Source of the DNA: Psammoneis japonica
Lineage: Eukaryota
NCBI GenBank assembly: GCA_008632985.1
Contig: QPGO01000016.1
Span: 530,840-594,839, forward strand
Reading direction: 5' to 3'
DNA: 64,000 nt
A program made the translations under genes and the position numbers. Position 1 is the stretch's first letter. Each line of letters starts with the position of its first letter. A model generated the notes under the pieces. That model was not told the origin of the DNA. It did no database searches and saw only the letters and a list, made by a program, of their open reading frames with translations. Of this stretch, positions 30,985 to 64,000 are shown piece after piece.

Positions 30985-33900
30985 GGTAACATGCTCAAGC
31001 AGCACAACAAAAAGTGTTTAGAGCAGCTGCCCTGCTTGCACCGGCAACATTGCCAACAATCATCCACGTGAGATTTGCCAGTCCACAAAATGGTGCCCCA
31101 CTCAGTGGAATGACAAGGCACTGGCTTGCTTCAACAATTTCAAGCATGAAGTCATGCCAAGTTGTTTCTGTGAGGCTGGCTGAGCACTTCAAAACATCAC
31201 GTTTCTGGCAAAACAAAGTGGTGTTGCCATCTTGAAAGAGGGATCAACCACGAGCAAACAACTTGCTTGTCCCAGCTTGCAGAGACAAGTGTTGCTTGCT
31301 TTCCCACACTGTGACATGTTTGCTGGGTTTGACACAAGCAACCCTCAGTGCCACCTTCTGCTGCTGTCACAAGCTTCAGCTTCACATTCACCTGCTCATG
31401 AGCTGCCATCTGGGTTCCCTTGGTGCCACCTTCAGCTGCTGTCATCAGCTTCAGCTTCACGTTCACCTCACAATGAGCTGCCATCTGGGTTGTTGAGATT
31501 TGTGCAGAGCTGCTTCTGGGAGTTGGCGGAGCCAACACAACACTTTCTCTGCGCATGTGGGTGCAGGTGTGTCTGTTTGTTGCTTGGTTGCTGCAAACCA
31601 ACTTGCTCCATTTTTGCTCCAAAAATGCACAAGACTGTGCCATGTTTGCCAGACCATCAATTTTTTCTAGAGATTGTTCACAATGTTGCCCCTCACCATG
31701 TCTGTTGTTGCTCCCTGCTTGACATCAGCATTGAAAGCACATGAGCTGTCATGAAAAATGTCAGGCTCTTTAAACAGCTGGCGCTTCTCACTCATGAGGT
31801 TTTCCAGGTCTTGTTTTTGTGTGCCTGTGCAATGAGCTCACCCACCCAAGTCCTGATCTGCAAGACAAACAGCTTTCCCTTTTCCTGCAAAGAAAAACAC
31901 CTTGGTTTTCACTGCAGAAAAATGAGCTTGTGTCCCCCACATTTTGCAGGAGTGCTTTTTTTTGCTCCTTTGCCCTTCAAGACCTTGTTGCGTGCACTGC
32001 ATGAATCCTTTGTGCTCCCCTGATTGTCAGCATTCAATGTTGAAAGAGTTGGGCTGCTCATCAGCAGCATTGGACCAAACATGGCAAATGCCATGAAGCC
32101 TTTGAAGATGAACAGTCATCTTTTTCAACCGGGTTGCTCTGCTTGTTTCTAGAGTTGACCATGCTGACAATTCCTTTGAGCTTGTGTGTTTGTGCATGTT
32201 TTTTTTTAACATGCAATCTGTCACATCATCATTTTTCTGCTCAGATCCTGAACTCTCAGGACTTTGGGGAAATGGAGCTGTGTCTTCCCAAATGGCCAGC
32301 TTGATTGTGGCAATTGCCTCCAGGCATTGTTCACAGGAGTCTGACCTGCAAAATGGCAGCAAGATCAACAATGCAGTGCATTTTTGAGAATCAACTTTTT
32401 GCCAGCCAGATTTGTTTGACTCATTCCCACATTGGTCATTTTCAAGTGGTTCTCTGTCAAAGAACTGACCACACACGGAGGCTGTGGCATTCCACAAACA
32501 AAGACACTTGTTGCTTGCAATGCCACACTCCTTTCTGGATTGCTGCTGCAAAGGTCTCTCAGGTGGCATCCTTGTTGTTTTCACAATTGCAGCAGCCACC
32601 CTGAAAAACATTTTCTTTGTGCAAAACACTGCCGCCAAGCAACAAATCTCTGGCACAGTGCTTTGGTGGTTGGCAGAAGACACGCTGTTTGTTGTTGTTG
32701 CCATCAAATCAGTGCTGCCAACATGTTTTGACTTGCAGCACACAGCCGCACACTGCACAAGAACACTGAAAGCCAGTTGTCATTTTGGTGCTGTTGTGTC
32801 AGAAAGAGACCCCCAAGTTTGTGCTCATCAGTGCACCCACCAACAAATTCTTTTTGGCAACTTGCAAATTCTGTGATCTGCTTGAGTGACACTGCCAGTT
32901 TTGCATTTTGGCAATGGCCATGTCTTGCAGACAAAAAAGAAGCCCAGCTCATGATGCACTGTTGTTGATTTTGCAGTGTGGCAAATGGCTGACATCAGCC
33001 TGGCATGGGGAAGAAAGTGGTGCCTGCAATGGCTTGGGGAGAACAACTCGGTTTTGGCTTTTGCAGGTGTGCTTTGAGGACTCAGCGCATTGTGCAGCTG
33101 TCTGCTCTGTTTGACTGTGGCACCTCTCTCATGTGGACATTGTGCGCAGCTTTGTTGAGTGGTTAAATTCAAAATAAGAACACGCCAACAAGGTTGCCAA
33201 TCAGAGACAAATGAGCACAAAAAGGAAGAAAGGGCAGACAGAGACATGCACAACAACTCCGCAGGTTGTGGAAAAAACTCTCTTTTGAAAGTGAAAATGA
33301 CAGCACCTGCACGACAGTGCCAAAAAGCATTTGGATTTTTCAAATGGTCAACTTCTAAATGGCCAAAACTCTGCAGTCCCCACTTCCCTCTCCAGCCTTG
33401 CCCCCAACTGGCTCACTCTGCAGCAGAGAGCTCCACACAACAATGAATGTGGTGTTTTGCAGATTTGACAAATCCATGTTCAAAGCAGGTTAAAAGCAAA
33501 TGCCAAATGTGAAACTTTGTTCAGCAAGCCCTTGGAAATTCTTTACAACAGTTTAAAAAATCATGTGGCAGGCTGTCTGTGCCTTGTGGACAAGCCAGCT
33601 CAACTCTAATCTGAGTCACCTGCACTGCAAGGGCACCAAAAAAATCTCTTGGTTGAGCCCCCTGGCTTGAACTCAACCATTTTCACACAGATTGTGACCT
33701 TCAGTTTGAGCTCACCTCACCTTTTGCAAGCAGTGTGTGTTGCACGTGCCACAGCAAAAGAAACAAGCAATTGATTGTCTGTCATTTTCATGCAATGTCT
33801 CATGTGCTGATCTCATGATGCATTTTGCAGCAACAGCACCACTCCTTGTCCTCCTTGTGTCTGCCTTGTCAGCAGCTCAACATGAAGTTGACCCAGCTTG

Positions 33901-34700
33901 AAGGGGGCTCATCAATGAGATGATCAATTTTCTGCACTTTGGTCTGTCCTGCTCTTTGGTTCTGGGCTTGCTTCATGTTGACAGCATGCAATCTTGATCA
34001 AGACAACATTGCCTTGTGTTTGATCCCAACGTGGCAGCTGGCATGTGCAACAAGGCTGCTGACACTGCTTTGAGCAAATGATCAGCAAGCTTTCTGATCC
34101 TCCCCAAGATCTTCCCTGAGTTGGAGTTGACAACACACCCGCTGTTGCCAGCATGTGAGAGCTCAAAGAATGTGGGGATGAAGAGCCTCCAGATGTGACC
34201 CAAGCATGTTCGCTGCTTCCCCTCTCTCAGGTGGTCACTCAAATGCTCATCCTGACTGCAGCCATTGTTGGCGGGTCCATGTGATGTGACACTCACATGT
34301 GTGCAACTGGAGAATGATGTCACTCAAATCGCGGCATTTGTGGCTGCCACAAACAACGTGGAAGGTGGAGCCAAGCATTGTCAGTGCGGTGTGACTGGTT
34401 GCCAAGTGGCTGTCAACATGAGTCCAGTCTCAACCATGCAGTTCTCTTCTTTCCCATGTGCAGAACCAAGTGATGCTGAGTGGGGCGTTCTTTGCTGATC
34501 TCCAATCCATGTCAGCAGGGTGCCTTTTGATGTCACGGGCTTGAGCCAAAGAAGTTGCCAAAGGCTGGCTGGTGCGATGGGCTGAAACAAGATCCAATCA
34601 GTTGACGGGCAGCTTCTTGCTTTGCCTCAATGCAGGGGGGGAATCACCGAATCAAGGACTTGCCCTCGAACTTGGCGCCAAGAATGATTCAGTTAAAGCA
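30985..34700. other. TpA/CpG-depleted degenerate block (probable decayed TE or gene remnants)
   Basis: Very few TA or CG; ~70-bp internal direct repeat at ~31348-31490; ORFs are Tyr-free and Cys/His-rich. Confidence 0.75.
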
Positions 34701-34959
34701 CCCAATTGAAAAACGGATCACCCCAGAGCAAAGATGAGGACACACAAACAATTCTCGCAAGCATCATTGTGCCCGCGCGGCGAAAAGCAAAAAGCTTCCA
34801 CAAGCGCGGGAATGAACTAACAGGAGAGATGAGAGTGACACCCCATCAATTCCCGGACTGTTCACGATTCGCCATTTCGAGTTGGTCAAGGATATCATCT
34901 CTTTTGCTACTCTCTTTGCTTTCTGTCCGTCTGCAGCAGTGTGAGAACAACCAGTGCTC

Positions 34960-35331
34960 ATGTCGAAAGAAGTTTTTGTTCGCACCAAACCTCACGTGAA
35001 CGTTAGAGGAGGACCAGACATTCTTAATGGCGCAAGTTTTCGTCTGTCCAAAAAGCTAGATGTCAAAACTTCGCTGACCGCACACCGCCCCTTTCAGGGC
35101 AGTCACACATGGACCGATTATAACCTTCACGATCCGGGACGCAGGTCGCTTGCAGAGGAAAATGGTGGCGTGTCTCTCCTTGCTCGCCTCTCTGACAATA
35201 GCGGCAAGGAAACTTTGCTACGGTTTGATCTCACCGGATGCATAGCGATAGAATACGAGCTTACCGTCAATCAAATGGGTGATGCGATTGAAAATCTTCA
35301 CTTTCATTGTGATCCTCTTCCTTTAAACTGA
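34960..35331 (+). CDS. 123-aa protein: EF-Tu-like N-terminal peptide plus putative tail-tube/Hcp-like domain
   Basis: MSKEVFVRTKPHVNV matches EF-Tu MSKEKFERTKPHVNV at 13 of 15 positions; C-terminal LSDNSGKETLLRFDLTGC..EY...AIENLHF pattern. Confidence 0.6.
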   Translation: MSKEVFVRTKPHVNVRGGPDILNGASFRLSKKLDVKTSLTAHRPFQGSHTWTDYNLHDPGRRSLAEENGGVSLLARLSDNSGKETLLRFDLTGCIAIEYELTVNQMGDAIENLHFHCDPLPLN

Positions 35332-46690: not shown

Positions 46691-48811
46691 TTCTTGTAGG
46701 TTTTTGCCTGTTGCTGGAGCGGTGGGGTTTTCCTAGCTAGCTCTACTACAGTACTGATAGAGTTAGAGCAGGAGCAGCTATGAGACCCAGGCCTTAAGTA
46801 ACTTCAAACTGGCATGGCAGGCGCGCTCCGGATGATCGTACAGACCACCACCGCGGTGACAACACGGAGAACTTGTCAAAAAACCGCCGGAGCCGACGAT
46901 GACATTGACGCGGTAGATAAGGTGTCTAAACAATCGTCGTTTTTAGTCCCATTACTACAGCAGGTTTATTACACTATCTTTCGTTTGGGGTTGTAAAGGG
47001 ACCATCAGAGAACGGCAGAGAGTCGAGTTTTATGCAAACATGCCGTTGCACCCGTTCGTGACGCCATGTTGCATGCAGACGACGCATCAACTCACCATTT
47101 GCCGGATATTCGGCACCCACTGAGTTAAAGTCCGAGTTTTTAAAAAGGCAAGTAAATTGAAAATCAAAATGGTGCTATCAATGTATCCAAGGCTCACCAC
47201 TTGTTGTCTCACTCAACTTTCTTGCGGATGCAGCCAATTCTTGTTGTCTTTCCTAGCATGAGCACATCGACGAATATAACGTCGTCGTCACATCGTCAAA
47301 CCCATTTGACTAATGGTATTGACTAGACGATTATTTTTGAAGACTTTGATAAAGCAACTGTAATGCATTCAGCCAAGTATTCTTGAATGGGAGAGAGTCG
47401 GGCGGATGAGAGTGAAAATGAAGAATGAAGTTGGCGTACGGTTCAAGAAAAAAAGCAGTCAAACATGGTTGACAAAATATTCTGATGCTGTTCTTCTATA
47501 GAATGATAAATAATAGTGAATAGAGCTCCTTCCTGGCTTGTATGTACTCTAGATTGATCGCAAAGACACAAATGTCAAATCTGAAAATAGAAAAGTGTGG
47601 CTTGTGAATGAGTATTTGTGGATTGCTTCACCCATTTATAGCATGAAAGAGGTCAGATATAGTTGTCACGAGGTCAAAGACAAATTAGAAAGTAGAACAT
47701 TGCCATAAAATCGGTTTGTGATGATGTTATCATCTAATCTCGGTGTCGAGAACGGGTCAATTTCACTTCATCGTACAGCGAGTCACGTGTCTTGAATCCC
47801 GTATGACCCACTCGACTCGAATTTTTTGGAAGTTTTAGCTAGACTTTGACCCCTGCTAGAGCAACAAAATACACAAGATATGAGCATTATCGGTCTCATC
47901 CTCATTAAACCGATGTCTTGCGAGAATGTAATAGGTATGTATTGTTCATGGTATCTGGTATTTCAAAATAGAACCAACTTTTCGTGGAGCACCTTTATTA
48001 CACGGGCAAGTACGAGGGACGATTTTCAGTGATTGGTTAGTAACTAACGTTCACCCCCATTCTAGGCCACCAAAAGGGTCATGAACTTCGTATCTGTATA
48101 TTGTTAGTCGATCGAGGTGGGTATTTGGTTAAGAACGGGGGGTTAATTTTTACACGTGGCATCATGGAGCTGGGACGGAAAGCAGCACATCAACACAAAG
48201 CAAACATCACACAACATGGCACATGAAACATGAAGCATGCATCCACATGCACGGAGCATGCGCATGCCGCGCGGCATGGCGAAATAGCGGTTCCGTCTTG
48301 CTGTCGTCGGGACCTTTGGAAACCACTTCGGCACTTCGTGAGCCGCAAAACATCGCAAAAATCCTCACCCGGCACGACGACAGTGCCGCCGACGCGCCTT
48401 CTTTCAGCTCTGCAATCGCAGCACTAACGGTTCTAAACTTCAACGGTTTCAACACAATTTTGGGCTTGTGTGAAGTGGAGCAGACGTTTTGCTGAACACT
48501 CTTGCTTGTGTGTGTGCAGTCGAATGATTGGGGCGGCGCATGTGCAAGCAGCACGCCAAACATGGTCCCAACGTGCAACACAACTGACTCTGGTCAGACA
48601 AATGATGCCAATTGACCCCAAGGCTGGCAATTTCAAATGTGGCAAAGGCCCCCCTTGCTGTGTCACACCACTGCCGCTGTCGGCTGCAACCCACGAGCTG
48701 GCGTGCACAATGTTGGGTGTTTTTGGAAGACACGCGCCATTTTGGTGTCAGAGCAGAGTGAGTGCTGATGAGAAAAAGCTTGAGAAAAAATGTTGGAGAA
48801 AGTTCCAGCAG

Positions 48812-49071
48812 GCCTGTTCCAGCTCCAGGTGATCCGCTTTTCATCACGCGAGAGGCCGATTTTTTCTGCGCAGTTTGGCACAATTAACTCCTTCAATTTT
48901 GATCGTTTCGAAAATCGAAAGGTGAGTGTACACCCAAAAACACATGTAAAGTGCACACTTGCCCTTCGATTTGGCAAAAAACGGATTTGGAAAAAGTCAA
49001 TTGCGCCAAATGCACAAATTGCCAAATGATGGGAATCGAACCCTCGCGGAGCACCTGGAGCTGGAACAGGC
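48812..49071. mobile_element. ~260-bp foldback MITE
   Basis: TIR gcctgttccagctccaggtg(a/c)tccgc at both ends; internal inverted arms; CAG flanks both sides. Confidence 0.88.
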
Positions 49072-50156
49072 CAGCAGCAATGAGAGAAGGACACATGTGA
49101 GCAACAAGAAATCATCATGTTGTTGAGTCAGAAGCAAGCTGTCCATGTGACACAAGCAGCGCCCCTGGGTTTCCTCTGTGCCAAAGCCGAGAAGCTTTTT
49201 TCACCACAACGTTGTTTTGCCATGCCCCAGTGCTGCTGCCGAACAACCAAACACTGCTTCTGGCAACAAAGCATTCCAAGAGAGCACACCCAACAACTGT
49301 GCTGGCAGCACTCAAGATGTGTCTGCACTCACTGGATCAAGCCGCAGCTTGCGCCAAGCAGCTCTTGCTGCAGCAGAGTGGGCAACATTTCAGTGCTGCC
49401 AGTTTGTTCAAAATCTCTCAGCAGCTTTTCCAGCATTTTTGCAGCCCTGCAGGAGTTGTGGACCAAATGAGACACAGCCCTTGATGCCCTGGTTGCAGTG
49501 AGTTGCTGCCACTTCATTTCAGCCTGCAGCTTGGCACACTTTGCACTTCGGTGTCTCCCATTGTGGAGAGCATGAGTTCAGAGAAGCCTTTCAGGGTGCA
49601 TGTGGTCCTGCCAAGTGTCTTGCAGACAAGGTCAAGTCACACACCAGAAGAGTTGACAAGGGTGGGGTGAAGGTCAACATGGGCTGAAGACATCTGTGCT
49701 GTGCTCTTCCTTTGGTCAAAACTGGCACAATGTTCACATCAGCACACCAGCGGTTTGAGGCAATGCAATCTTTCATTGACAAGCAGAGTTGTTGGAAAAT
49801 GCAGCAGATGGGAAATGCAGGTGACCTGGGTGCATTGAAGAGAAGATGTTGTTGCTGGGGTTTTCCATCACAAGGAAGTGGTCAGCCCCAGATGAGGAAG
49901 AAGACGAGGAAAAACTTTTGTGCTGAGATCCTGTGCAGATCCCATGCAGATTGTGACATCAGCTGTTGCTGTGCACACTGCTTTTTGGTGCAAGACTGTG
50001 CAATGATGGACAATGCAGGCAGCCAGAGAAACCTCAAGGAGCATTGACAAGTGCATCTGTTGAATAACTTTCTCCCAACTTGAGCTTGTTGTGGACTTGG
50101 TGAGACAGAACATGTTGGAAGAGACCACCATGGAAGCTCATCCATTTGTGCTCAAG

Positions 50157-50498
50157 AACATGGTCCCCAATGGTGTCCACCTTGCTTGTTGAATGCAACT
50201 GCAATGCAGCATTTGACAATGTGGTGATCAAAGTGTTTTGGCAGCTGTGGGCTTGGCTGCCTGCAACCAGACAAGTCAACCACTGGGTGAAAGTGCCATG
50301 TTGGTTGCAACTTGCAGCACATCACGACAATTGATTTTTCCTCATCTGGCAACATGGTTCCCAGTGGTGTTCACCTTGCTCATCCAATGCAGTGTTTGAA
50401 GTGTTTTGGCAGCTGTGGGCTCTGGATGAGTCTGCTGCCAGATGAAAGGACAATGTCAAAACAAACGGCAAAGTGAATCATGACAATTGATTTTTCCT
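50157..50498. repeat. Diverged direct repeat upstream of copia element
   Basis: aacatggt.ccca.tggtgt.caccttgct...aagtgttttggcagctgtgggct...gacaattgatttttcct occurs twice. Confidence 0.8.
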
Positions 50499-50570
50499 GG
50501 CTGGTTTCCTTGTCTTTCTCATCTGAGGAATTCAGGGTCAAACAAGGTGTTCCCTGTGACAGAAAATCCC

Positions 50571-53500
50571 AGTTGTTGCTCCTGATGTTGAAAATTTGGC
50601 AACTCTTTGCCATTGAGATTTGTCACCAATCTCTCTCTCTTTTGCTTGTGAACTCTCATCTCACTTTTTGGAGTGAGTCATTTGGTTCACACAATTTCAT
50701 CCCTGGTGTCAGCAGGTGCCTGTTTGAGTTGTGAGTTTGAAATTTGTTTCAGAACTTCTGGGCAATCCACAGTCACTGCAGCAACCAAGACAGTTGCAGC
50801 AAGCAGAGCAGAAGACCTCACCTGATTCCCTTTCAGCAACATTGACTTGCTGGTTCAACACTCACTCCATGGAGTTGCTGGCGCTGCATTTGGTGCTTGA
50901 AAATGCTGTCACACTTGCAGTCAATTGAACCCTGAAGACCTGCACAAATGAGTGGCAGAGGGGAAGTGGCAGATTGAACAACCAAGGCCAAGGATGTGGT
51001 CACAGTGGAAGAAATGACAAGAGCCACAGGTCATCAAACCCAAAAAAGACCAATGACAAGAAGCACTTTCAGCCTGAGATGAAGTTTTGTCCATCACAGA
51101 ACAGCAACACTCTCAATGCTGCACACAAAGATTTTAAGGAGAAGATCACCTGTCACATGCAAAAGGAGTGCACTTGAGGTGCGCATCTGGCAAGATCCAC
51201 AGAGGATGAGAAATGCAAGGACTTTGGCTCCAAGAGACCCACTTTGGGTGCAGCTGCAATGACTGTTCTGGGCAAGGACAGTGCAGATTGTCAGGCCAAC
51301 CTGGAGAAGAGATGTCAAGAAAAGAGGCAACTGGAGTGCCAGTGCAAAGCAGAGCTGTGTGAACATGACAAAAAAGTGAGAGAGTTTGAAGAAAACAAGA
51401 CAACCCATGTGCCAAGATCATGGACAATTGCTGCACAAAGGATGAAACAGAGAGTGCAGGGGACCCCAACTGTGCAAATGTGGGAATGACCCAATCAAGC
51501 TGCTGAAGCTGACACAAGCACTTGCACTTGACTCAATGAGAAGCTGATGCCCATTCCACACACTTGCCACGTTGCTGCAGAATGTGCTGGATGTGAGACA
51601 ACAAGACAGTGAGCTGCTGAATGGCTGCCTGTCAAGATTCAAAATCAGCAAGACACTGCTGTCAAAGGACTGGGAGACAGAATGGCTTGATGGCTTCATC
51701 GCCAATGCTAAAAAACACAAGGATGCCAGTCCAGTGGACAAAGACATTCTGTGAGACAGTGTGAGAGAGAAATGGACAACCTTTGTGTGTTGGCAGAGAA
51801 CAGCAATGACTGCTGCTGCAAGAGCTTGGAGAAGAGCTTTGTCAGACACTGCAGCCTGGGCAAGGACATGCATGCAAAGACCCTCAACATGGCAATGGAT
51901 GTGCTGCTCAACCATCCAAAAGATGACACTCCTTACAAACAACACAGCCAGAGGAGTGACAACCATGCGAACAACAAGAGTGACAGCAAGAATGAGATGA
52001 CAATCCCAATGCTTCAAAAGACCAGAGTCATGCCCAGAAGGGCAGTCAGGGTGAGATTGTGACATGCCGCTGTTGTGGTGAGCTGAATCACAAGTCCCCA
52101 GATTGCAAGCACAAAGATAAAATGGCATTTAAAGATTGGTTCAGGAGTGCCAGAAAGAAGCCAGATGCCAAGGGACAGAGCCACACACAAAGACAAGATG
52201 ACTCATTGATGTGGACAGTGACACAGAAGCACTGACACCACCAGATTCAACTGATCAACCCATTCTGGCCAAAGAAGAAGCACTGGCATGGCATGGATTG
52301 CAGCTGGCAAATGAAGGACCAGAGACAAGCATGAGCCAAGTCAATGTGAAGACATTGATGCGGATGATGTCATCCTTGACAATGGCTTCACCCTCAATGC
52401 TTTGGCAAGCCAGAGACTTGTGCACAATGCACAGCTGGAAAAGACCAAGATTGACCTGTCTGCAAGTGCAAGAGTGGACATTTTAGATGAAAACTGCAAC
52501 ATGCCCAGTGGGGGGATGTGAAGCTGGGATTGCAAAGTGTGATGGTGAACATCCACAGTTTGAAGAGTGCCAATGGCAAATGCTGCACAACTTGTGACAG
52601 CTGAGTGGTGGATGAGTTCTGTCTGCTGAAAAGAAGACTGGCAAACAGGTCACAGTGTCAAAAGTGAATGATGTTGGACTGCATGCCTTCATGCCCAGCC
52701 AGAAGTTCTTAAATCATGCAACAGTCCTCAAGAGAGAGAGAGAGAGCTGCATGTGAGCATGCTGTCAAAGATGACCAAGATGGAGAAGAACAATGGCAAG
52801 AATGCAGGAGTGGATCTGGGAGCTGTGGCTCCAGTGGTGGAGCAGAACTTCATGGGCTGCACCAAGAGGGACACACCGAGCACCAAGAAAGCACTCAGAC
52901 TGTGCCACGAGGCTGGAACACCCAATGTCAGGGATTTCAAGCCATTTTTACATTTGAATCAGGTGAAGAACTTGTCCATCATTCCTGAAGCCATTGACAG
53001 GATGGAGTTCATCTGGGGCCCACCAACAGATGCACCAAAGGGCAAGACCAAGCATGCGCGCCATTCTCATGAGAGGAGCAACATTGTTGCCACGCCACCT
53101 GAGACACATGAGAAGCAGAGAGAAGATGTGATCCTCTGCATTGATGCCATGGAAGCATGTGGTGTTGAGCTGCTGCATTTGCTGACAAGATGGTCAAGTG
53201 CCAATTGAGTGTGAGACTGAGGTCCAAGAAGCACGCCAATTGTTTGCAATGCTCTGGACATGTTTCTGTGATGGCACAACATGGCTCTGTTCAAGATTGA
53301 CTTTGTTGAGTGAGATCCCAAGTTCAAGGCAAATGCCAGCAGATGTGGCAGATGGCATGAATCTGGAGCCCATCAAAGAGTGAACTCAAGCCACTGTGCA
53401 CCACATGCTGTGCACAATGATGCCCAAGTTCATGTGCAAGCAAGCCATCATCAAGAACACTGTCAGGTTGAGCATGCACCCACAAAGGAAGGAATTTCTG

Positions 53501-56190
53501 AAACTTGCAGTCTGCACACTGCTGTGCAACAAAGAAACCCACACTGCGACAAACACTTCAAATTCATGTTTGGGGGATTTGCACTTTCCCACATTGAGAA
53601 CAAGCTGATGAACATGATGGAGACATGTGGCATTGACAGCATCTGCTTGTGACCACATTTTGATTCATCCAAGGGCAGACACTGTGCCACGAACCTGCAC
53701 AAAAGGAAACTTTTGAACCCCTGCCACTGCAACGCTGCACCCTTGGCCAAAATGCATTCATTCTAGCTGTTGAGAAAATGGCTGTGTCACAAGGCATCAA
53801 GGAACTCAATTTCACAGGCAAATGTGGAAACAATCTCCAGCACAATGCTGATTGGACTGCAGGAGTGGGCAACAACAAAAATGAAAGCAACAGCAACAAA
53901 AGTGACAGCAAAGATGATTGCAATGACCAAGTCAGAAAACAAAGACTGTGAAGACAACCCTGACACAGATGATGAGTGTGACAAGCCAAATAAGATCCCA
54001 GCCAATGAGATGCCCAGTCCCAATCACCATCATGAGAACCAAGAAGTTGAAGATGAAGACTGTGAACATCAGGATGAAGAGGAAATGCCCAAAGATGAGG
54101 ACAAAAATGATCCACTGGAAGATGGCATGGACTCCCAACCAGATGACAGGTTGGAAGGGGAAAGATTGGTGGAAGAGGCAAGCACCTCTGCTGGAAGAAA
54201 AACCAGAGGTGGGGCATGACATCCTTTGACATTGCAACATGCAAGCACAGAGAAAAGAAAGTTTGATTTGTGGGAGTGGCAGACACTGACAAAACAGAAT
54301 GAGAATGAGTCAAACTCAAGTGCTTCCATCATTTAAGAACAAACATGAGCCCCAATCCAGGGGATGATGCTGCGCATGAAATGGAGACAGCTGTGGCACT
54401 GGCACAGTTCATGTGCAAGATTGGCAACAAACTCTGATCAGGAAAGGACACCTGCTTTGCCCAACAGCATTTGCTGCATGAAGCCTCAAAGTGTTTGGCC
54501 AGAGAAGGCATGATGCCTCAGAGAAGGAGATTGGGCAACAACTCCATGACAGAGTCTTCTTTGCACCAACATGACAGAATGTTTTTTTTTCACTAACATC
54601 AGCCAAAGATGCAACTCTGGCTGAGCAGACCAAGGCTTTGATTGCCTTGGTGTTCCCAATTGAGAAGCAAGATGGATGCATGAAGTGACGAATGGATTGC
54701 AGTGAGAAACCCACCAGAAAATGGCTGGACAAAGATGAGTCAGCCAGCCCAACAGTGTCACTGGAAGGTGCGCCAATGATGGCTGTTGTTGATGCCATGG
54801 AAGGGTGTGACACATTGAGTGTCAATGCACCGAATGCACCATTTTCAGTGACTTTGACTCTGGAGCCCAAGGGAGGTGAAGACCAGATCATGATGAAGAT
54901 TGCAGGAGTGTTGGTCAACATGCCAGTGAGCATCAATCCCAACCTGCAAAGACCACACATGGTCATGGAAAAGGGAAGAGAGTCCTCTGAGTCCAAGTCA
55001 TCACAGAGCCATCTGCAACAAGTTGGTCATGGGTTTGAGCTCACCCATGCAATCTGTGCATTGCCACTTGGATGATCAATGGCAAGCAGCCCACAATGTG
55101 CTTTCATGTGGATGATCTGTTGTTGAGCCACAAGAGCCCAAAAGCAAAATGACAAATTCCAAACCTGGCTGAACAACAAGATGCATGGAAGCCATGGTGA
55201 AGTCATCACAATGCAAGGGAAGAGATGTGACTGTCTCAGCATGACTCTGGACTTTAGCGTCAAAGACAAGGTGAAGTTCGACATGACCAACTGTGTTCAC
55301 AAGATGGTCAGTCAGTTTCTGGAAAAGATCAAGAGTGTGGATGCTGCCATGATGCCAGCAGGAGAGAATGTGTTCAACCACCAGCAGCACTGGATTGCCA
55401 GTCAAGAAAGCAAAAACATCCCACACACAGGTTGCCAAGGAGCTGTTTCCATCCAAGAGAAGCTGCTCAGATGTTCACCCAACTTTCACAGTGCTGTGTG
55501 CACAAGTCAGGGAGCCTGCCAACAAGGGCTGGGGGAAGCTGGTCCATTGCATTGTTTGAACCAGACACAAACTGAAGTCACCACACTGAGTGCAAAAAGA
55601 CCTCCAAGTTGTTGAGTGGTGTGTGGATGCATTGTTTGCAGTGCATCCAGATTTCAAGAGCCACACAGGAGGAGTTGTGACCATGGGTGACAGAGCAGTG
55701 CAGACCATGTCAAAATGCCAGGAGCTCAACACCTGAAGCAGTGCAGAAGCCAAGCTGGCAGGAGTCAACACTGCAATGACTGTGACAATGTGGACTGAGT
55801 TGTTCATGGAACACCAAGGTCATCCAATTGAAAATGCTGTTGGGAAAGTGCAACGCTGTTGGGAACCAATGGGTGCTGGAGTGCTGGCAAGCAATCCAGA
55901 GCACTCAACATTTGGCGCTTCTTTGTTGCTAACCAGGTTGAGAAGGGCAATCTCAAGATGCAGCATTGTCTGACTGATGACATGTTTGGGGATGCCATGA
56001 CAAAGCCATTGCAGGGTGAGAAGTTTTGAAAGTTCAAATGAGCCATTGTGGGCTGATTGCTTCAAGCATGGCAGGTGTGATGCCCTGCAACCTGGAAAAA
56101 GTGGCAGGCTGTTCAGTTCAACCAACCACAATCTGTTTTGTTGACAGCAGCCATGATGTTGATGTTGGTGGTCATGGACCATGTGGGGTG
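50571..56190 (+). mobile_element. Degenerate Ty1/copia (CoDi-like) LTR retrotransposon, near full length
   Basis: gag (NDPIKLL, SLGKDMHAKTL), CCHC knuckle CRCCGELNHKSPDC ~52065, protease ILDNG ~52370, integrase, RT (EKEIGQLHDR, EKQDG), RNaseH VDALFAVHPDFKSHTGG and TKPLQG, in copia order. Confidence 0.9.
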
Positions 56191-56841
56191 ATGAAACCCT
56201 TGTGCTGTGTGATGCAATGACATGGCAGTGGCCAGAACAACGCTGGGACAAGCTCAAGTGGTTGGCTGCATCATCAGAGCCAAGAAAAGAATTGGCCAAA
56301 AAAAGAGGAGAATTCCAAGTGCAAGACTGTTGCTGTGCACTGGAAGAACATGAAGAGCAGAGGAAGAGTGGGTGTGGCTCACTGCCACAGGACCCACTCA
56401 ACCATTGAGAAGTGATTGATGTGGGTCCATTGATGATTGAGTTTTTTGAGGATGAGACAAGCCCATCTGGACCATCCTTCATGGATTGTTGGAGAAGAAC
56501 AAAAAGGAATTTGAGGAAACATTGCACAAGCTGTGGAAGGCAAGGTTCCACACCATGTGACATGTGCACGCCACAAAGCAAGAGTGGGCCAATGAAGCAC
56601 ACCAGCACATGTCCACGACTGCACTGATGATCTCCCTGTTTGATGACAAAGGTGAGACAAGGCTCACATTGAGGCAGCTGATGCACTGGGCAGTTGTGTT
56701 GTTGAAATGCCACAAGGAGATGTGGAGTCCATGCACTGTGATGAAGTTGGGCTGAGAAACCAATGTGAAGATTGGGAGTGTGTTGGAACACACAGCAGAT
56801 GGGAGGTGCAAGGAACCCAGATGCATTGAAGAGGAGATGAT

Positions 56842-58850
56842 GTTGTTCCTGATGTGGAAGATTTGGTGGCTCATTTTGTTCAAGATCTCATTGTCGCTGA
56901 TCTCCCCTGCTTGTGAATTGTTCATCTCACTCTTTGGAGTGTGTCTTTTGGTTGACACCATTTTGTTGTTTGTGTCAGATGGTGTGTCCATTGCATCACA
57001 ATTGAGAGAAGTTTGATTGAGAACTTCCAGGCAAACTGCAGCTGGGTGCTGCAGCAGCCAAGGCAAGTGCAACGAGTGGCACAGGAGACCTTGTGGGATT
57101 CCCTTTTTGTGACATTGACTTGCTGGTTGAACAATTGACACATGTGGCATTGACAGCATTTGCCTGTGACCCCCCATTTTGATTCACCCAAGGGCAGGCA
57201 CTGCATCACAAACCTGCACACAGGAAAACTTTTGAGCCCCTGCCACTGTGCCACTGCACCCTGCTTGAAAGACACACACATCTGAGCTGTCAAGAAGAAG
57301 ACCACATCACAAGGCATCAAGGAACCCAAGGTCATGGGCAAAACATGGAGACAATCTCCAAGATGCTGATTAGACTGCAGGAGTGGACACCAATGAAAAC
57401 AAAGACAGCACCAACAACAAAAGCCACAGCAAAAATGAAGACTGTGAAGACAAACCTGACTCAGATGATGAGTGGGAAGAGGCAACTGAGATCCCAGCCA
57501 ACAAAAAAAAACAGCCCCAATCAACAACACTGGAGCCAAGAATTCAGAGAAGAAAACTGCATGCATCATGAACAAGATGAAGTGCCTGAATGTGGGGATG
57601 ACAGTGATGCACCTGAAAAGATGACAAGGACTCCCCAGCCAGACAACGGGTTTTGAAAAGAGAAACTGGTGGACAAGGCAAATGCCCCAGCTGGCAGAAG
57701 GACCAGAAGCAGCACAAACTTTGGTGCATCCTTTGACATTGCCACACACAAACACAGAGAAAAAATCACAATTTGCAGGAGTGGCGGACGCCAATGAAGA
57801 GGGATGAGAACAGATCAAACTCAAGTGCTGCCACCATTTAAGAACAAACATGAGTCCCAACCCAGGGGACGACATTGAATGCAATGCAGAAACAGCTGTG
57901 GCAATGGCACAATTCATGTGCAAGATCAGCAACCAACTCTGATCAGGAAATGGCACCTGTTTTGCCAAGCAGCATTTGCTGCATGAAGGCCCCAATGTGT
58001 TTCACCAGAAGTGGCTTGATGCCTCTGAAAAGGAGATTGGACAACTCCAAAACAGAGTGTGCTTTGCACCAATGCAAGTTGAAGATGTGACTCCAACTGA
58101 GAGGATCAAGGCTGTGGTTGCCTTGATGTTCCCAATGGAGAAGCAAGATGGTCACATGAAGGGGCAAGTGGATTGCAATGGAAAACCAACTGGAGAAATG
58201 GCTGGACAAGGATGAATCAGCCCAGCCCTTCAGCGTCACAAGAAGGAACACCAAAGACAGCTGTCATCAATGCAATGGATTGGTGCAATGCAATGAGTGC
58301 CAGATGCACCAAGCACATTCATGCAGACATTGACTCTGGAGCCTGAGAGGAAGGTGAAGACCAGATCATGCGCAGTGACTGTGATGCTCCTGTGGACCAA
58401 GCTGTTCATGGAACACCAAGGCCATCTGATTGACAAGAACACCCCACATCCGCGCAACAGGAGCACCACACTGTTGGAGAAGCTGTGATGGATGCAGGAG
58501 TGCAGACAAGCAATCCCTGAGCACTCAACACTTGGCACTTCTTTTTGTTGCTGACCAGGTCAAGAAGGGCAATCTCAAAGTGCAGCATTGTCTGACCAAT
58601 GGCATGTTTGGGGACTTTGTGTCCAAGCTGTTGCAGGGCAAGAACTTTCAAAAAATCAAACAAGCCATTGTGGGCTGTCAGTTTCAAGCATGGCAGGCAT
58701 GGCACCTGTTTGTGATGTCATGTGAGAGTGTTCTGATGTGTGTGGGTAAAGGAACCCTGCAACCCTGAAGACATGATGACATGGGCTGCATGGCTCAACC
58801 AACCACAATCTGTTCTTTTGACAGCAACCATGGTGCCAGTGACAGCAAAT
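56842..58850 (+). mobile_element. Internally deleted second copia copy
   Basis: 56842-57133 resembles 50571-50860; 57138-58360 resembles 53622-54900; 58365-58850 resembles 55777-56190. Confidence 0.85.
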
Positions 58851-59900
58851 GGCTGGCTGGGCAGAGCCAGAGCAAGGGCACACCAATGAAAGCCTTGAGC
58901 CACGTCAACCCATGCAGGAGTGAGTTCTCAAGCACTTGGAGCATGACAAGCTGCAAATGTCATGAGACCATTTTGCATGGAACACACATGGCCATGACAG
59001 TTGGACATGCAGAGCTTGAGTTTTTTCACAACATTGTGGCCACACTTGGCATTGTGCAGATCCTGTGCAGACCCTTCACACAAAGTGAGTCGCTTGCGCG
59101 ATGATGGCCAGTTGTGCAGCTCGGTCATGTCAAGCTCCCACAGCCTGTTGCAAGTCTCGCACTGGGAGCGGCTTTTTCCAACATGTGCTTCTACATGATC
59201 AGCTGTCGCGGAGGTGGGCACCAGCCTGCAGATGCGCGCTGCACTCGCACTCCCATGACAAGGTCAGTGGAGTGACAAGAGGAACCCAGCGTGCTTCTTC
59301 TCCGACACGACAAACTCCATTGTCACCAAACTTGAAGTGCTGTGTCTGGCACATCTGGAATTCATCCGGAGTCCCCAGATGTTGTTTCAGGTCCTGATGA
59401 AGAACTCCTGTCATCACATGTGTCTTTGTTTCACCAGAGTTTGTCTTCTCATGTGACGCTCTTCTTGTCAGAGTTTTTGATTTCTTCATTCTTTGTTCAA
59501 GCTTTTTGAGTTTGTCTGCTGCCTGCAGCCAGCTGGCGCTGTTGCTGCAGAGTTTTCTGGTTCTGCTTTCTGTTGCTTCAATGCTGCCCCTTTCTTTGGC
59601 AGGCAACAGACAAATTTCTGCTCTCACAGCCGGCCTCTCTAGCCTGTCTCTTTAAAAGGGCCTGCATCAAATAAAAAATTGACGCCATTGATGTCATTTT
59701 TGTTCTTCGGTGTTCCGAGTGAAGATCTGCGCTGCACCTTGCTGTTCGGGGGTGACAACACCTTGTGACAACATTTCATCGATGAATCATTGATGAACGA
59801 TTTGAGATTGCAGTCAAGGAACAGTCTTTGCAGGAACCGAGTCACATGCAAACTTTGACGCTGCGTGTGAATGATCAGCTCTCCATTTGCTCATGTGTGA

Positions 59901-62900
59901 ATGCTCTGCTCAAAGATCCAGAACTCAAAGATGCAAAACGATGTGAGGAAACTGGACTTCCACGTGCCTCTCTTTGGGCAAGACTCGGAACTCGCCCTCC
60001 TCAGAAATGCCTTGGAGGATGCCGCTTCCGGCGTCACACTGGTGAGGATCCATGGTGATTCAGGAACAGGCAAGTTGAAGTTGATTGAAACATTTCAGAA
60101 TCTTGCAAAGGAAACATGTGTGTTTGGGATTGGCAAGTTTGAGGAACAGGTCGATGAGCCGTTTTCAGCCATGGCGGATGCGCTCAATGATGTTTGCAGT
60201 CAGGTCCAAGATTTAGGCACGTTCCCACCCCGATAATTTCGGCCGTAAAATAAACACAATTTCGTTCTACACAAAATTCCTGTAGAAACTCTCGTACAAG
60301 AAAAATCGCACGTCTGTTTTCCATCCTTCAATTTACAGCCGTAATTATCAGCAATTTACGACGACAGGTGTCGGTCGTCGTAAATTCTCTCCCGTAAATA
60401 TATATAATTTTCACGGTAAATTCGGCGTTTTGGGAGCTCGAACGTGCCACGTCACAACCTCTCCCATTTTATTTCTCTGCTCCGATCGATCCGCACAACA
60501 ACCATGATGGCTGCTGCCATGAACGGACCCGTTCATACACGAACGACCGTCCAGTCTACGAAGGTAACAATATAGAGACAGGTTAATAAGACTACGCTTG
60601 ATACGATCAACTTGTCAGAATCTTGAGTTTTCGTTGTTGTTGTGGCTTATGACGTCCGTGTCGACTCATGGTAGTTTTGATGTCTTCGTTTCTCTTTTTC
60701 AGATTTCGCGTTGGTATTCTTCACAAACCATGCGTCTACAGACTTGACGCTGAATCTTCGCAGCAATATATGATCTGATGTTACATTGAGGTGGTTCTTG
60801 GGTGTATACTCAAGGTTGTTATACTTGATTGACGGTCAAGAGTCAAGAACACAAGAATTTTGGTCACGTCGACAACAGCAAGGCTTTTGCTCCGTTGTGA
60901 TAGAATGTGACTATGAAGAAGACTGTGTGCACTTATTTCATTAACCTTATCGTAAGTTGGGACAATTATGTTGGTGGGGGTCAATATTTTGCACAACATC
61001 GTCTGCAATGTGCCTCACAGTGCCTTGCTCTATTTTCTGCTCTCTTCTCTGCGACTTGCTCTGTGTTTTTTTGCTCTTTGAAATGGATTTAAGCCATTGG
61101 TAAACTGCAAGAGATAAGAATAGTGCCTTTTAGCACCTTATACGCTGTAGAAATTTCATTTAGTAGTTTACATGCTGTAGTCTTACTGCATGCCATTGTT
61201 TCGTGGGTCTTTCTGCTCTCTCTGCAACTCTTGCTAGTGGATTGGATATTGGATGTATTTCTTCCGACCTTCACTGGTATTATCATGAGTCTTACTCTAC
61301 TAGAGTAGAGAGGGTAGCAGTGCACGGTCAACAGTGCTCTAGCTGTAGCGCGTGTAGCGTCTCCTCACCGAGCTCGACATGAGATTTTGATGTTTTTTAC
61401 CGATCGAATTCGTTCCCAGCCTGACGCCCGTAAATACGTAAATTTGGCCAAATTATATTTATTTTACGGCCGAAATTATCAGGGTGGGAACGTGCCTTAG
61501 AAAAGACACAAAATGAGTTGCCAGCCAGAGTGTTGGGGAGCATTGTTCCCATGCTGCGGAACAACTGAGACTCCAGCAGCACTCATCTCTTGAGGAGGAA
61601 GGCAACAAACTTTGATCGATTAAAACTGGCGGCTCGTGATCTGATCAGAATTCTTTGTGAGGAACAGCGGGTCATTCTGTTTCTGGATGATTTGCAGTGG
61701 GCGAGACCTGACTCCTTGGAGCTCACAAAGACACTTGTGTCAGACAAGGTGGCCAATCAGCTCCTCTTTGTTGGTTCGCACCGTGAAGTTTCAGTCGAGC
61801 ACAATCTCAACACTCTTTTTGAGAGCAACAAGGATGTTGTCGAAATCCAATTGGCAAGTCTTGACGTTGTGACTGTTAAAAAATTGGTTGCTGCATTGCT
61901 GAAAAAGGAGCCTGATGAAGTTCATGCGCTTGCCACCGTGGTTCATTGCAAGACAGGAGGAAATGCAATCTTTGTGATCCAGTTTCTTCGTTGTCTTGAG
62001 CAGAAAAGATTTCTCGCATGCTCCCTGAAAACGTGTGGGTGGGAATGGGATTTGGATGGGATGCAGTCCCATGCAAACATCACTTCAGACAAAGTTGTTG
62101 ACATGATCATCGACAAGATTCAAACCACCTCTGCAAGTGCTCAACTTGTGTTGACCATTGCTGCGTGCTCTGGCCTGGCAAGGTTTGACATTGACACGTT
62201 GTTTTCAATGACACAAGCAATCGCCGACGTCCACAAGGAGGAAGCCATTGAAAGCATGGGGAGACTCCATTCTGTTTTGGAGACTGCCGCTCAAGATGGA
62301 CTTCTTGAGGAACTCACACCTGGTGAGTTTAAGTTCGCCCACGACCGGGTGCCAGAAAGTGCAACTTCTCTTCTTCCCAGCGGCCAAAAGAAAGTTTTGC
62401 TTCACTGCAAGATTGGGCAACGGCTGCAAAACATGAGTTTGATGGCCAATGACAACAGCCATGTTGGCAAGACCCGGCTCCTCCTGCTTGGTGTTTGCCA
62501 GCTGAATCTTGCCAAAGACCTTGCAGTGGATGTAGAGGAAAGAGAAGAGGTTGCACGCCTCAATCTTCAAGCTGCTGAAGTTGCCATTCACAAATCCGCC
62601 TTTTTCCCAGCAGTTGAATTTTTGGAAGCAGCTGCAGCTCAGCCAGGAGGGCAAAATGACAGGGATCCTTGGGAGCTGCACTGCAATTTAATGATCAAGC
62701 TGTGTGCTTCTCTTGCCAAGATGAAGCTGTGCTGTGGGAAACTGGACGAATCTCGTCCCATTGCCGACACCGTCTTGCAACGGGCACAAAGTTTGAAGGA
62801 CAAAGTGGGCGCTTGCAGTGTGTCAATTAATGGCCTTGTCCAGCAAGAGAGAATCGAGGATGCCACAGACCTTGACTTGTTGGCAATGGACCAGCTTGGC

Positions 62901-64000
62901 CTCCATCTTCCTCAACGAAACTTGCATTTTCATGTTGCTGTCAACCTGATGAAAACAAGAAGGCTTGCAAAGGGCAAGTCAGATGCGGAATTGCTTGTGG
63001 ATGATGAGAGGTTGCAAACAGCGGCGCCTTTCCATTCAGAGGTGGGGGGGATGTGCTTTCCATCTGGCAACAGCCAGTTGTTGGCAACTGCATTCTTGCC
63101 GGGGCACAACAGACATTGTTGCATGGGCCAAATGATGGCTCATGTGTTGCATGTGCCGTGTGTGGGTTCATCCTGGGAAAGACTGGTGACATAAAAGGGG
63201 CCTTTCGGTTCAGCCAATTGTCGCTGCATCTTGCTGAGAGTGCAGAGCTAGTTCCGCAAAAGCCTCGCGCTGTTGCTTTAGCTCACTGTGCATCTCAGCA
63301 CTGGTTTCGGCCGCACCATGAGAGCCTCAACCCCTTTTTCATGCACGTGAACTGACTTTGGAAATCGGAGACATCCATCATTTGTGGTTTTGCATTTTTC
63401 CTTGCTGCATCGCCATGTCTGTTGTGGTCTCCATCTGTCTCTGCTGCAGAGTGACATGAAGAAATTGCAGGAGTCCTTGACGACTGTTCCCCAAGCTTTC
63501 ATGTTGCATTGGCGCAGCCCCTCTGGCAAATGGCATTGAATCTAATGGGAAAATCCCGCAATCCATTGGTTCTCAGTGGAGAAGCTGTGGAAGAAGGTCC
63601 ATGCATTGAGGAGTGGACCAAGTGCAAGAACGAGTGGCCTTTGAACTCACTGTGGCTGTCTGAGATGTTCCTTGCTTGTTGTTTCAATGATTTGACCCTC
63701 GCCAACAAAATGGCTTCAAATCCAGTCCTCCATCTGAGGAAGTCCCCTCTGCCATTCTCCCTGTCAGAGTGTCATTTGAAGGACTCATTTCCCTTGGTCT
63801 GGCCAAGTCAACTGGCAAAAGATTGCACAGGAAAAAAGGGAAACGGAGAACAAAGCAAATGACGAATTGGGTGAAGAGCGGGGCCGTAAATTGTCGCCAC
63901 ATGCCACTCTTTCTGAGAGCTGAATGGAAGGTGCTCGATACAAGGAGATCCAAAAGAAGTGCAGGATTGTGTGACAACGCCATTGTGACAGCTGCAAAAC
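59901..64000 (+). pseudogene. STAND/AAA_16 ATPase (multi-sensor kinase/MalT-like), interrupted by a MITE; runs off window
   Basis: Walker A GDSGTGK, GKFE, Walker B LFLDDLQW, KTGGN, FKFAHDRV; in-frame stop ~61567; frameshifts after ~63000. Confidence 0.9.
60216..61496. mobile_element. 1281-bp non-autonomous PIF/Harbinger-like element
   Basis: 39-bp TIR ggcacgttcccacc(c/t)gataatttcggccgtaaaataaa with one mismatch; TTA target duplication at 60213-60215 and 61497-61499; removing it restores QVQDL|EKTQNEL. Confidence 0.93.

What the first reader, a model, noticed from the sequence alone, without database searches (positions are those of the whole stretch)
61590..63400. A host STAND-ATPase gene with every tyrosine erased
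Seen: the 534-aa ORF contains no Tyr. Positions I expect to be Tyr in this family read His or Cys: GSHR (GSYR), FLACSLKTCGW, LHCKIG, WELHC, VGAC, and ACAVCG further on. TAY->CAY/TGY predicts exactly this. Many CpGs persist, so TpA loss here is uncoupled from CpG decay. The process affects a non-TE multicopy gene and degrades it by missense change without making stop codons.
Basis: partly seen in the sequence, partly recalled or inferred. Interest (0 to 1): 0.8.

Follow-up and report, generated by a model that had tools for sequence, protein, structure and literature searches.

The report
Dead STAND gene stripped of TpA
A broken copy of a diatom-type STAND ATPase gene has lost every tyrosine codon because a mutation process that turns the dinucleotide TA into TG or CA swept the region, a process so far reported only once, in an unrelated alga.

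Summary
The 534-aa ORF has 0 Tyr, and so does the whole 931-codon conceptual reading of the gene. By contrast, 148 of 148 homologues have 1.4-4.7% Tyr.

The ORF is the longest open piece of a dead AAA_16/STAND gene running from 59901 past 64000. That gene is split by a 1281-bp TIR element and carries three in-frame TGA stops and two frameshifts.

It lies in a tract (48152-64000+) where TpA is at 4-7% of expectation and CpA/TpG are raised. The TA deficit plus the CG deficit roughly equals the CA+TG excess. At 12 Tyr-consensus columns the copy reads C6, H1, F3, T1, A1. Other consensus columns are kept in 226 of 305 cases (p = 1.8e-7).

- GSHR and LHCKIG are not diagnostic of lost Tyr.
- CpG is also halved, and its loss co-localises with TpA loss.
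- Stop codons are present.

The same TpA to TpG/CpA signature was described in a 2026 preprint on Bigelowiella natans. I found no diatom report. Verdict: a real feature, and a new member of a very recently described kind.

The parts
48152..60215 (.). Left part of the TpA-erased tract. It has a sharp left edge at 48151/48285. The stretch 48152-58750 has TA 24 against 429 expected and CG 100 against 579 expected, and is made of degenerate direct repeats of a unit of about 3.5 kb.
   Evidence: no Pfam family in the ORFs of 90 aa or more overlapping this stretch (part of the 96 ORFs, all without a family)
58751..59900 (.). Upstream flank of the gene. It is TpA-erased (4 against 47 expected) while CpG is about half kept (29 against 63 expected). 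The step in CpG depletion lies near 58750.
59901..60215 (+). 5' piece of the STAND pseudogene: AAA_16 profile positions 1-83, including Walker A. The Ser/Thr after the Walker A Lys reads Leu (TTG at 60075).
   Evidence: E 9.9e-10, 39.6 bits; homologues have S 25 and T 12, i.e. 37 of 37
60213..60215 (.). Left copy of the 3-bp target-site duplication TTA.
60216..61496 (.). 1281-bp non-autonomous DNA transposon. Its terminal inverted repeats match at 38 of the first 39 positions. Composition is normal (TA 82 against 52 expected; CG 67 against 70 expected). Many contigs of run X1 lie on it. It is absent from a second copy of the locus.
   Evidence: (joint 60212>61497 skipping 1284)
61497..61499 (.). 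Right copy of the target-site duplication TTA.
61500..63090 (+). Middle of the pseudogene, in frame with the 5' piece once the element and one TTA are removed.
   Evidence: e.g. P0306 residues 1-675 align to 59931-63071 in one frame
61566..61568 (+). First in-frame TGA. The second copy in run X1 reads TGC here.
63089..63104 (+). Approximate place of frameshift 1.
   Evidence: ends and starts of the aligned pieces
63092..63721 (+). Next piece of the pseudogene in a second frame, with in-frame TGA at 63353 and 63452.
63715..63760 (+). Approximate place of frameshift 2.
63724..63999 (+). Last visible piece of the pseudogene in a third frame. It runs off the window at about residue 970 of homologues of about 1070 aa.

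Best explanation
The ORF is the longest open fragment of a dead copy of an AAA_16/STAND ATPase gene with a TPR-like tail. The gene runs from 59901 past 64000, and the organism is diatom-like by its FEN1 gene. The copy lies inside a tract of at least 14.5 kb that underwent DNA-level, dinucleotide-specific transition hypermutation. TpA became TpG or CpA on both strands, and TTAA was largely spared. A co-localised but less complete CpG to TpG/CpA decay acted on the same tract.

Every TAY (Tyr) codon was hit, mostly giving TGY (Cys) and sometimes CAY (His). CpG decay added Arg to Gln/Trp changes and destroyed the Walker A Ser/Thr. Because TAA and TAG cannot persist in such DNA, only TGA can close frames. 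This is why a 534-codon frame stays open in a gene that is otherwise broken.

Later, a Harbinger-like miniature transposon with normal composition inserted at a TTA inside the P-loop domain.

Shown: the composition, the mass balance, the loss of Tyr, the breaks, the insertion, and the direction of CpG decay at two conserved Arg codons.

Inferred: the direction TA to TG/CA at individual sites, from family conservation; the chemistry, most simply adenine deamination to inosine at 5'-TA-3' in DNA, as proposed for B. natans; and why this tract was targeted. For the last point the options are a silenced domain next to a repeat array, a duplicated sequence, or a foreign element.
For: Composition: TA observed/expected is 0.03-0.10 in every 500-bp window of 61501-64000, against 0.5-0.98 in the inserted element.

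Mass balance: TA deficit plus CG deficit against CA+TG excess is 885 vs 869 (48152-58750), 76 vs 79 (upstream flank), 279 vs 281 and 313 vs 294 (two other blocks), and 178 vs 122 in the gene.

Tyr: 0 of 931 codons. 0 of 12 Tyr-consensus columns are kept (C6, H1, F3, T1, A1), against 226 of 305 other consensus columns kept, Fisher p 1.8e-7. Homologues carry Cys at 0-12% of those columns.

Codon phases: TA is lost in all three.

Context: TTAA makes up 22 of 69 residual TA against 73 of 1653 baseline TA, p 1.4e-12.

Repeats inside the tract: 43 CA/TG discordant dinucleotides, against 1-8 for control double changes and 0-1 in repeats of normal composition.

Independent reads: contigs of run X1 match TA-free stretches exactly (382 and 506 nt with 0 differences). 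A second copy lacks the insertion and differs mainly at CG/CA/TG sites. It reads CGA where the window has CAA at a 95%-Arg column, and CGG where the window has TGG.

Literature: the same TpA to TpG/CpA signature was measured de novo in B. natans (bioRxiv 10.64898/2026.01.13.699255; Results and Discussion read).
Against: - No close unmutated paralogue or orthologue was available. The best homologues are 35-40% identical, so TA to TG/CA is inferred per column and not seen per site.
- 5 of 12 Tyr-consensus columns read F, T or A. The TpA route does not explain these. F is a common natural alternative in those columns.
- CA/TG discordance cannot tell an ancestral TA from an ancestral CG.
- None of the 28 gene-region rows among the 40 differences listed between the two copies (415 more were not shown) has TA in one copy. 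So no TpA event is caught in the act, and the process may be extinct.
- The inserted element attracts many contigs of run X1, so it is probably highly repeated, yet it is not TA-depleted. This speaks against a simple 'any repeat is hit' rule.
- The enzyme and the trigger are unknown.
Confidence: 0.8

Rival explanations
1. The tract is foreign or mobile DNA (an integrated virus or a large transposon that carries a STAND gene). It was hypermutated as such, either in place or before integration, as with the viral inserts of B. natans. On this reading the gene is not a host gene.
For: Block edges are sharp. In B. natans the targets are viral inserts and TE-like coding sequences. The neighbouring 10.6 kb has no recognisable host gene: 0 of 96 ORFs matched a Pfam family, and the Atlas recognition score was low.
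Against: No viral or transposon domain was found either. The nearest protein clusters to the best homologue list Bacillariophyta as the commonest known phylum among members with a record. A second copy with the same upstream flank exists, which fits a host duplicate or an allele equally well.
Confidence: 0.15
2. RNA-level A-to-I editing (ADAR-like) of a transcript, followed by reverse transcription and insertion: an edited retrocopy.
For: A to G on the sense strand dominates at Tyr columns. In columns with 30% Tyr or more, Cys outnumbers His 8 to 3. The TG excess is 83 against a CA excess of 39 in the gene. The preprint notes that ADAR favours U before the edited A.
Against: CpA is also in excess, and His appears at Tyr columns, so both strands were hit. 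TA loss continues through the 1.15-kb upstream flank and the adjoining 10.6-kb repeat tract. There is no poly(A) and no sign of a retrocopy edge at the gene's ends.
Confidence: 0.04
3. Sequencing or assembly artefact: base modifications in silenced DNA are miscalled, so that TA and CG are read as TG or CA.
For: Only 74% of the stretch's sampled words occur in the one run that holds it. The indels and stops could in principle be read errors.
Against: Contigs of run X1 reproduce TA-free stretches without any difference (382 nt and 506 nt). The second, diverged copy is also free of TA at all the listed differing sites in the gene region. The library type of X1 is not on record, so this is not fully independent proof.
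Confidence: 0.03
4. Natural composition or selection: a gene lineage that avoids TpA and Tyr for functional reasons.
For: TpA is mildly under-represented across the window's normal parts (observed/expected 0.5-0.7).
Against: 0 of 148 homologues lack Tyr. The loss affects all codon phases and non-coding flanks. The gene is broken. The Walker A Ser/Thr is lost.
Confidence: 0.01

Closest known systems
TpA-specific hypermutation of integrated viral regions in Bigelowiella natans (Mettrop et al., bioRxiv 10.64898/2026.01.13.699255; abstract, Results and Discussion read)
   Same: Mutations fall only on TpA and give TpG or CpA, depending on the strand. They are confined to discrete regions. The long-term footprint is TpA depletion with CpA+TpG enrichment. 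TpA-poor coding sequences there include reverse-transcriptase and DDE genes as well as host-like domains.
   Different: That organism is a chlorarachniophyte (Rhizaria), whereas this window is diatom-like. There the process was measured de novo in mutation-accumulation lines; here only the footprint is seen. Depletion here is far deeper (TA observed/expected 0.04-0.07, against 0.45 in their NCLDV region). Here it co-localises with CpG decay and spares TTAA. The preprint's main text does not mention CpG, TTAA or diatoms.
Repeat-induced point mutation (RIP) of ascomycete fungi (recalled; also summarised in the preprint's Discussion)
   Same: Dinucleotide-specific transitions, applied densely to delimited tracts, inactivate genes. 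Copies of a repeat are hit independently after duplication.
   Different: The direction is opposite. RIP turns CpA/TpG into TpA and so creates stop codons. Here TpA is destroyed and TAA/TAG stops are removed. The lineage differs. A homology trigger is not shown here, and a probably highly repeated element in the same locus is unaffected.
5-methylcytosine-driven CpG decay of silenced repeats
   Same: CpG to TpG/CpA loss is confined to the same blocks. The direction is shown at two conserved Arg codons by comparison with the second copy.
   Different: It cannot explain TpA loss. In the gene CpG is only halved, while TpA is about 90% gone.
PIF/Harbinger-type miniature inverted-repeat elements (properties recalled)
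   Same: 3-bp TTA target duplication, inverted termini matching at 38 of the first 39 positions, 1281 bp without a long ORF, and a precise empty site in another copy.
   Different: No transposase is present to confirm the superfamily. Only one copy lies in the window.
AAA_16 STAND NTPases with TPR-like C-terminal region (PF13191)
   Same: Collinear alignment over about 930 codons with homologues of 940-1200 aa. Walker B hhhhDD is present.
   Different: This copy is a pseudogene. It lacks the N-terminal kinase and the GAF/His-kinase modules of the bacterial relatives.

Membership tests
AAA_16 / STAND NTPase (PF13191) | Match to the Pfam profile above the curated cut-off | tested here: met
   The 5' piece 59901-60236 scores 39.6 bits (cut-off 32.6), E 9.9e-10, on profile positions 1-83. 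The ORF's first 60 residues match profile 114-166 at 25.9 bits, below the cut-off on their own. The two halves become contiguous when the insertion is removed.
AAA_16 / STAND NTPase (PF13191) | Intact Walker A GxxxxGK[S/T] | tested here: not met
   It reads GK-L (TTG at 60075), where 37 of 37 aligned homologues have S or T. This fits a dead copy, with TCG to TTG inferred.
AAA_16 / STAND NTPase (PF13191) | Uninterrupted reading frame | tested here: not met
   1281-bp insertion, three in-frame TGA codons, two frameshifts.
TpA hypermutation as in B. natans | Changes restricted to TpA, giving TpG/CpA on either strand | tested here: inconclusive
   The footprint fits: the mass balance, Tyr to Cys/His, and loss in all codon phases. 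No ancestral sequence was available, so single events are not observed. CpG decay yields the same products.
TpA hypermutation as in B. natans | Confined to discrete regions with normal neighbours | tested here: met
   Six TpA-depleted stretches with sharp edges (the tract holding the gene counts as two, split by the element). For example, TA sites stop at 48151 and resume only inside the later insertion.
TpA hypermutation as in B. natans | Elevated de novo rate in present-day lines | not testable with these tools
   This needs mutation-accumulation or population data. None of the 28 listed gene-region differences between the two copies involves TA.
TpA hypermutation as in B. natans | Targets are foreign (viral or TE) sequences | tested here: inconclusive
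   The only recognisable target here is a STAND gene of a family common in diatoms. The other blocks have no recognisable domain: 0 of 96 ORFs.
Fungal RIP | C to T at CpA, raising TpA and lowering CpA/TpG | tested here: not met
   The opposite is seen: TpA observed/expected 0.04-0.07 and CpA/TpG 1.5-2.0.
Fungal RIP | Triggered by sequence duplication | tested here: inconclusive
   Repeats in the tract were hit independently after duplication, and a second copy of the gene exists. However, a probably highly repeated element is untouched.
PIF/Harbinger MITE | Terminal inverted repeats plus a 3-bp TWA target duplication (criterion recalled) | tested here: met
   38 of the first 39 terminal positions are complementary. 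TTA is present on both sides. A precise empty site exists in run X1.
PIF/Harbinger MITE | Related autonomous element with a DDE transposase | not tested
   No genome was available. No other copy lies in the window.

The most novel reading that the evidence does not exclude
Diatoms possess an active, targeted genome-defence process that edits DNA at 5'-TA-3' (sparing TTAA). It is aimed at the same silenced domains as cytosine methylation, and it is homologous to the process just found in the rhizarian B. natans, which would make it ancient within the SAR supergroup. It works like RIP run backwards: it riddles genes with missense changes while removing stop codons. Besides repeats, it disables surplus copies of STAND (NLR-like) genes, and so shapes the immune-type gene repertoire.
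Probability: 0.3. Interest if true: 0.85.

Novelty: new member of a known kind. Interest (0 to 1): 0.66.

Why it matters
TpA-specific DNA hypermutation has been described only once, in a 2026 preprint on a chlorarachniophyte. A much deeper footprint in a diatom-like genome would show that the process is not a curiosity of one lineage.

This gene is the one place in the window where protein homology gives the direction of change (Tyr to Cys/His). It also shows what the process does to a coding sequence: it kills the gene by missense changes while keeping frames open. Gene predictors may therefore call such corpses as genes with odd composition.

Three further results give handles on the enzyme and on its targeting: the co-localisation with CpG decay, the sparing of TTAA, and the untouched later transposon insertion.

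Tried and rejected
- Own genome: none held, so paralogues could not be counted or aligned.
- The listing of cluster members: not available, so the taxa of the best homologues are known only indirectly, from the Atlas.
- Word-indexed protein searches: gave only relatives of about 30% identity, mostly bacterial. The exhaustive search reached 35-40%.
- The search for related loci in metagenomes: 41 pattern matches, 0 confirmed.
- Expression: no RNA holder listed, so it could not be addressed.
- Pfam on 96 ORFs of 90 aa or more overlapping the other TpA-depleted blocks: 0 families. Atlas on ORF 56925-58001(-): nothing credible.
- Boundary repeats of the 1-kb block 24800-26250: none.
- The window being B. 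natans itself: rejected, because the best named FEN1 hits are all diatoms at 60-74% identity.
- Leu to Ser/Pro and Ile to Met/Thr signals at consensus columns: too few cases to read.
- Literature: five searches found no report of TpA-specific hypermutation in diatoms. The library lacks most subscription journals.
Full report
**What is at the coordinates.** The ORF 61590-63194 (+, 534 aa, TTG start) exists. It contains no Tyr, 20 His and 17 Cys. Its first 60 residues match the end of the Pfam AAA_16 profile (positions 114-166). A separate ORF at 59901-60236, in the same frame, matches the beginning of the profile (positions 1-83, 39.6 bits), including the P-loop.

Between the two pieces lies a 1281-bp element (60216-61496). 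Its termini are inverted repeats matching at 38 of the first 39 positions, and it is flanked by a duplicated TTA. Removing the element and one TTA in silico puts the two pieces in one frame. Homologues then align collinearly from about 59931 to about 63070, for example residues 1-675 of P0306.

The alignment continues in a second frame (about 63092-63721) and then a third (about 63724-63999), and runs off the window near residue 970 of proteins of about 1070 aa. The conceptual reading has 931 codons, 0 Tyr, and three in-frame stops, all TGA (61566, 63353, 63452).

So the '534-aa ORF' is an internal fragment of a pseudogene. It begins just after the first TGA, not at a real start codon.

**Is the lack of Tyr more than chance?** The exhaustive protein search gave 14,246 relatives. 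The best are 35-40% identical and 940-1200 aa long. Among the 148 newly returned proteins of the 150 best listed, Tyr averages 2.9% (range 1.4-4.7%) and none lacks Tyr. P(0 Tyr) is 1.5e-7 for 534 residues and 1.2e-12 for 931.

In an alignment with the 40 homologues of 850-1250 aa taken from the 60 best, 12 columns have Tyr as the majority residue. The copy keeps none of them and reads Cys 6, His 1, Phe 3, Thr 1 and Ala 1. It keeps 226 of 305 other majority residues (Fisher p 1.8e-7). A first alignment restricted to the ORF gave the same picture: 6 Tyr columns reading C3, F2, T1. Homologues have Cys at 0-12% of these columns.

- Sound: FLAC, WELHC and VGAC.
- Ambiguous: GSHR, KTCGW and ACAVCG.
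- Wrong: LHCKIG. Its His is 97% conserved in the family, and the Cys column is only 7% Tyr.

**The cause is a regional mutational footprint.** The window's normal parts have TpA observed/expected of 0.5-0.7 and CpG of 0.8-1.1. Six stretches have TpA at 0.04-0.07 and CpA/TpG at 1.5-2.0: 10101-13800, 25001-26000, 31001-33500, 33501-35000, 48201-60200 and 61501-64000. Their edges are sharp. TA sites are dense up to 48151 and then sparse until the inserted element.

In each of the four stretches tested outside the gene (two of them parts of the tract that holds it), the TA deficit plus the CG deficit matches the CA+TG excess: 885 vs 869, 76 vs 79, 279 vs 281 and 313 vs 294. In the gene the figures are 178 vs 122.

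In the gene's own frame, TA is missing from all three codon phases: 0, 9 and 5 observed against 20, 20 and 40 expected from the window's normal ORFs. TA is also missing from the 1.15-kb upstream flank. This excludes selection on protein or codon usage.

Cys outnumbers His at Tyr columns (8 to 3 in columns with 30% Tyr or more). The TpG excess (83) is larger than the CpA excess (39) in the gene. So A to G on the sense strand was about twice as frequent as T to C, but both occurred.

**Context.** The 69 surviving TpA in the depleted blocks are not random. TTAA accounts for 22 of them, against 73 of 1653 TpA in the normal parts (p 1.4e-12). CTAA/TTAG and CTAG are partly spared. TpA followed by a pyrimidine on either strand is almost gone.

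**CpG.** In extent that is right: in the gene CpG is 77 of 154 expected while TpA is 13 of 114, and in 48152-58750 the figures are 100 of 579 and 24 of 429. In place it is not right. 41 of 44 low-TpA 500-bp windows are also low in CpG, against 3 of 84 other windows.

CpG decay also did damage to the gene:
- The Walker A Ser/Thr (37 of 37 homologues) reads Leu, TTG.
- A 95%-conserved Arg reads Gln, CAA.

**A second copy.** One public run (coded X1) holds 74% of the sampled words of 58700-64000. Laid at 80% likeness, it gives contigs identical to TA-free parts of the window (382 and 506 nt, 0 differences). It also gives diverged contigs over the same places, about 10% different upstream.

One contig joins 60212 to 61497, which is a precise empty site. 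It differs from the window at about 4% of positions.

Forty differences were listed, the best supported, with 415 more not shown. Of the 28 that fall in the gene region:
- 12 are CG facing CA or TG.
- 8 form four CA/TG pairs.
- None has TA in either copy.

The second copy reads CGA where the window has the Gln codon CAA, CGG where the window has TGG, and TGC where the window has its first TGA. CpG decay therefore continued after the copies split, in a direction that can be read directly. TpA loss was already essentially complete in both copies.

I cannot tell whether the second copy is an allele or a paralogue. Depth in this tool is not copy number. The exact contigs argue against a base-calling artefact, although the library type of X1 is not on record.

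**Timing and targeting.** The inserted element has normal composition (TA 82 against 52 expected, CG 67 against 70). Many contigs of X1 lie on it, and it is absent from the second copy. It therefore arrived after the hypermutation, or it is immune to it.

Inside the neighbouring tract, which consists of degenerate direct repeats of a unit of about 3.5 kb, one pair of copies shows 43 CA/TG discordant dinucleotides. Control double changes give 1-8, and repeats of normal composition give 0-1. So those copies were mutated independently after duplication.

None of the 96 ORFs of 90 aa or more in the other depleted blocks matches a Pfam family. Their nature, whether transposon, virus or satellite, is unknown. 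This STAND gene is the only target whose former state can be inferred.

**Organism and family.** A FEN1 ORF in the window has its best named hits in diatoms at 60-74% identity and no identical entry. The best STAND homologues have AAA_16 at the N-terminus and a long TPR-like tail, without the kinase, GAF or His-kinase modules of the bacterial relatives. The nearest Atlas clusters list Bacillariophyta as the commonest known phylum. 'Host gene' is thus plausible but not proven.

**Comparison with what is known.** A 2026 preprint on Bigelowiella natans measured, in mutation-accumulation lines, a roughly 1000-fold raised rate in two integrated viral regions. Of those changes, 230 of 231 were A to G or T to C, and all of these fell on TpA. 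The authors also found TpA-poor, CpA/TpG-rich coding sequences and clusters elsewhere in that genome, and proposed DNA adenine deamination by an ADAT2-like enzyme.

The footprint here is the same kind but differs in several ways:
- It is deeper.
- It is in a different supergroup lineage.
- It is joined in place with CpG decay.
- It spares TTAA.
- It is visible on a STAND gene.

Fungal RIP is the functional analogue, but it runs in the opposite direction and creates stops instead of removing them (recalled). Five literature searches found no diatom report.

**Verdict.** It is wrong or overstated on four details: stop codons, independence from CpG, two of the motif calls, and an unproven 'multicopy host gene'. 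The phenomenon is a new member of a kind described only very recently. The mechanism, most likely adenine deamination at TpA in DNA within a silenced domain, is inferred and not shown.

Noticed in passing
window 60216-61496: 1281-bp non-autonomous DNA transposon. Its inverted termini match at 38 of the first 39 positions and it has a TTA target duplication. Many contigs of run X1 lie on it, and a precise empty site exists in another copy of the locus, so the family looks recently active.
   Followed up: partly
window, all TpA-depleted blocks (10101-13800, 25001-26000, 31001-35000, 48152-60212, 61500-64000): Surviving TpA are strongly enriched in TTAA (22 of 69 against 73 of 1653 in normal DNA). 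Surviving CpG are enriched in GCGC, CCGC and CCGG. This suggests flank preferences for both processes.
   Followed up: partly
window 24993-26037: A 1-kb TpA-depleted block with sharp edges sits between two genes of normal composition: a histidine-phosphatase ORF (23958-24644, minus strand) and a Glycos_transf_3 ORF (from 26217). It has no terminal repeats.
   Followed up: partly
window 50600-58840: Degenerate direct repeats with spacings of about 3.5 kb and 6.3 kb fill the tract next to the gene. One pair of copies shows 43 CA/TG discordant dinucleotides, meaning independent hits after duplication. No protein family was recognised.
   Followed up: partly
window 9794-10100 and 15189-15498: A direct repeat pair, 79% identical and of normal composition, brackets the TpA-depleted block 10101-13800 and an EamA-transporter ORF (13890-15101). 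The depleted block starts exactly where the left repeat ends.
   Followed up: no
window 50001-58000: Marked strand asymmetry inside the depleted tract: AT skew +0.13 to +0.22, and TpG observed/expected of 2.0-2.2 against CpA of about 1.75.
   Followed up: no
window 59054-59230: The summed depth of X1 contigs jumps to 412 here (neighbouring bins 60-110), and there is a loose end at 59103. This suggests a small repeated element in the gene's upstream flank.
   Followed up: no
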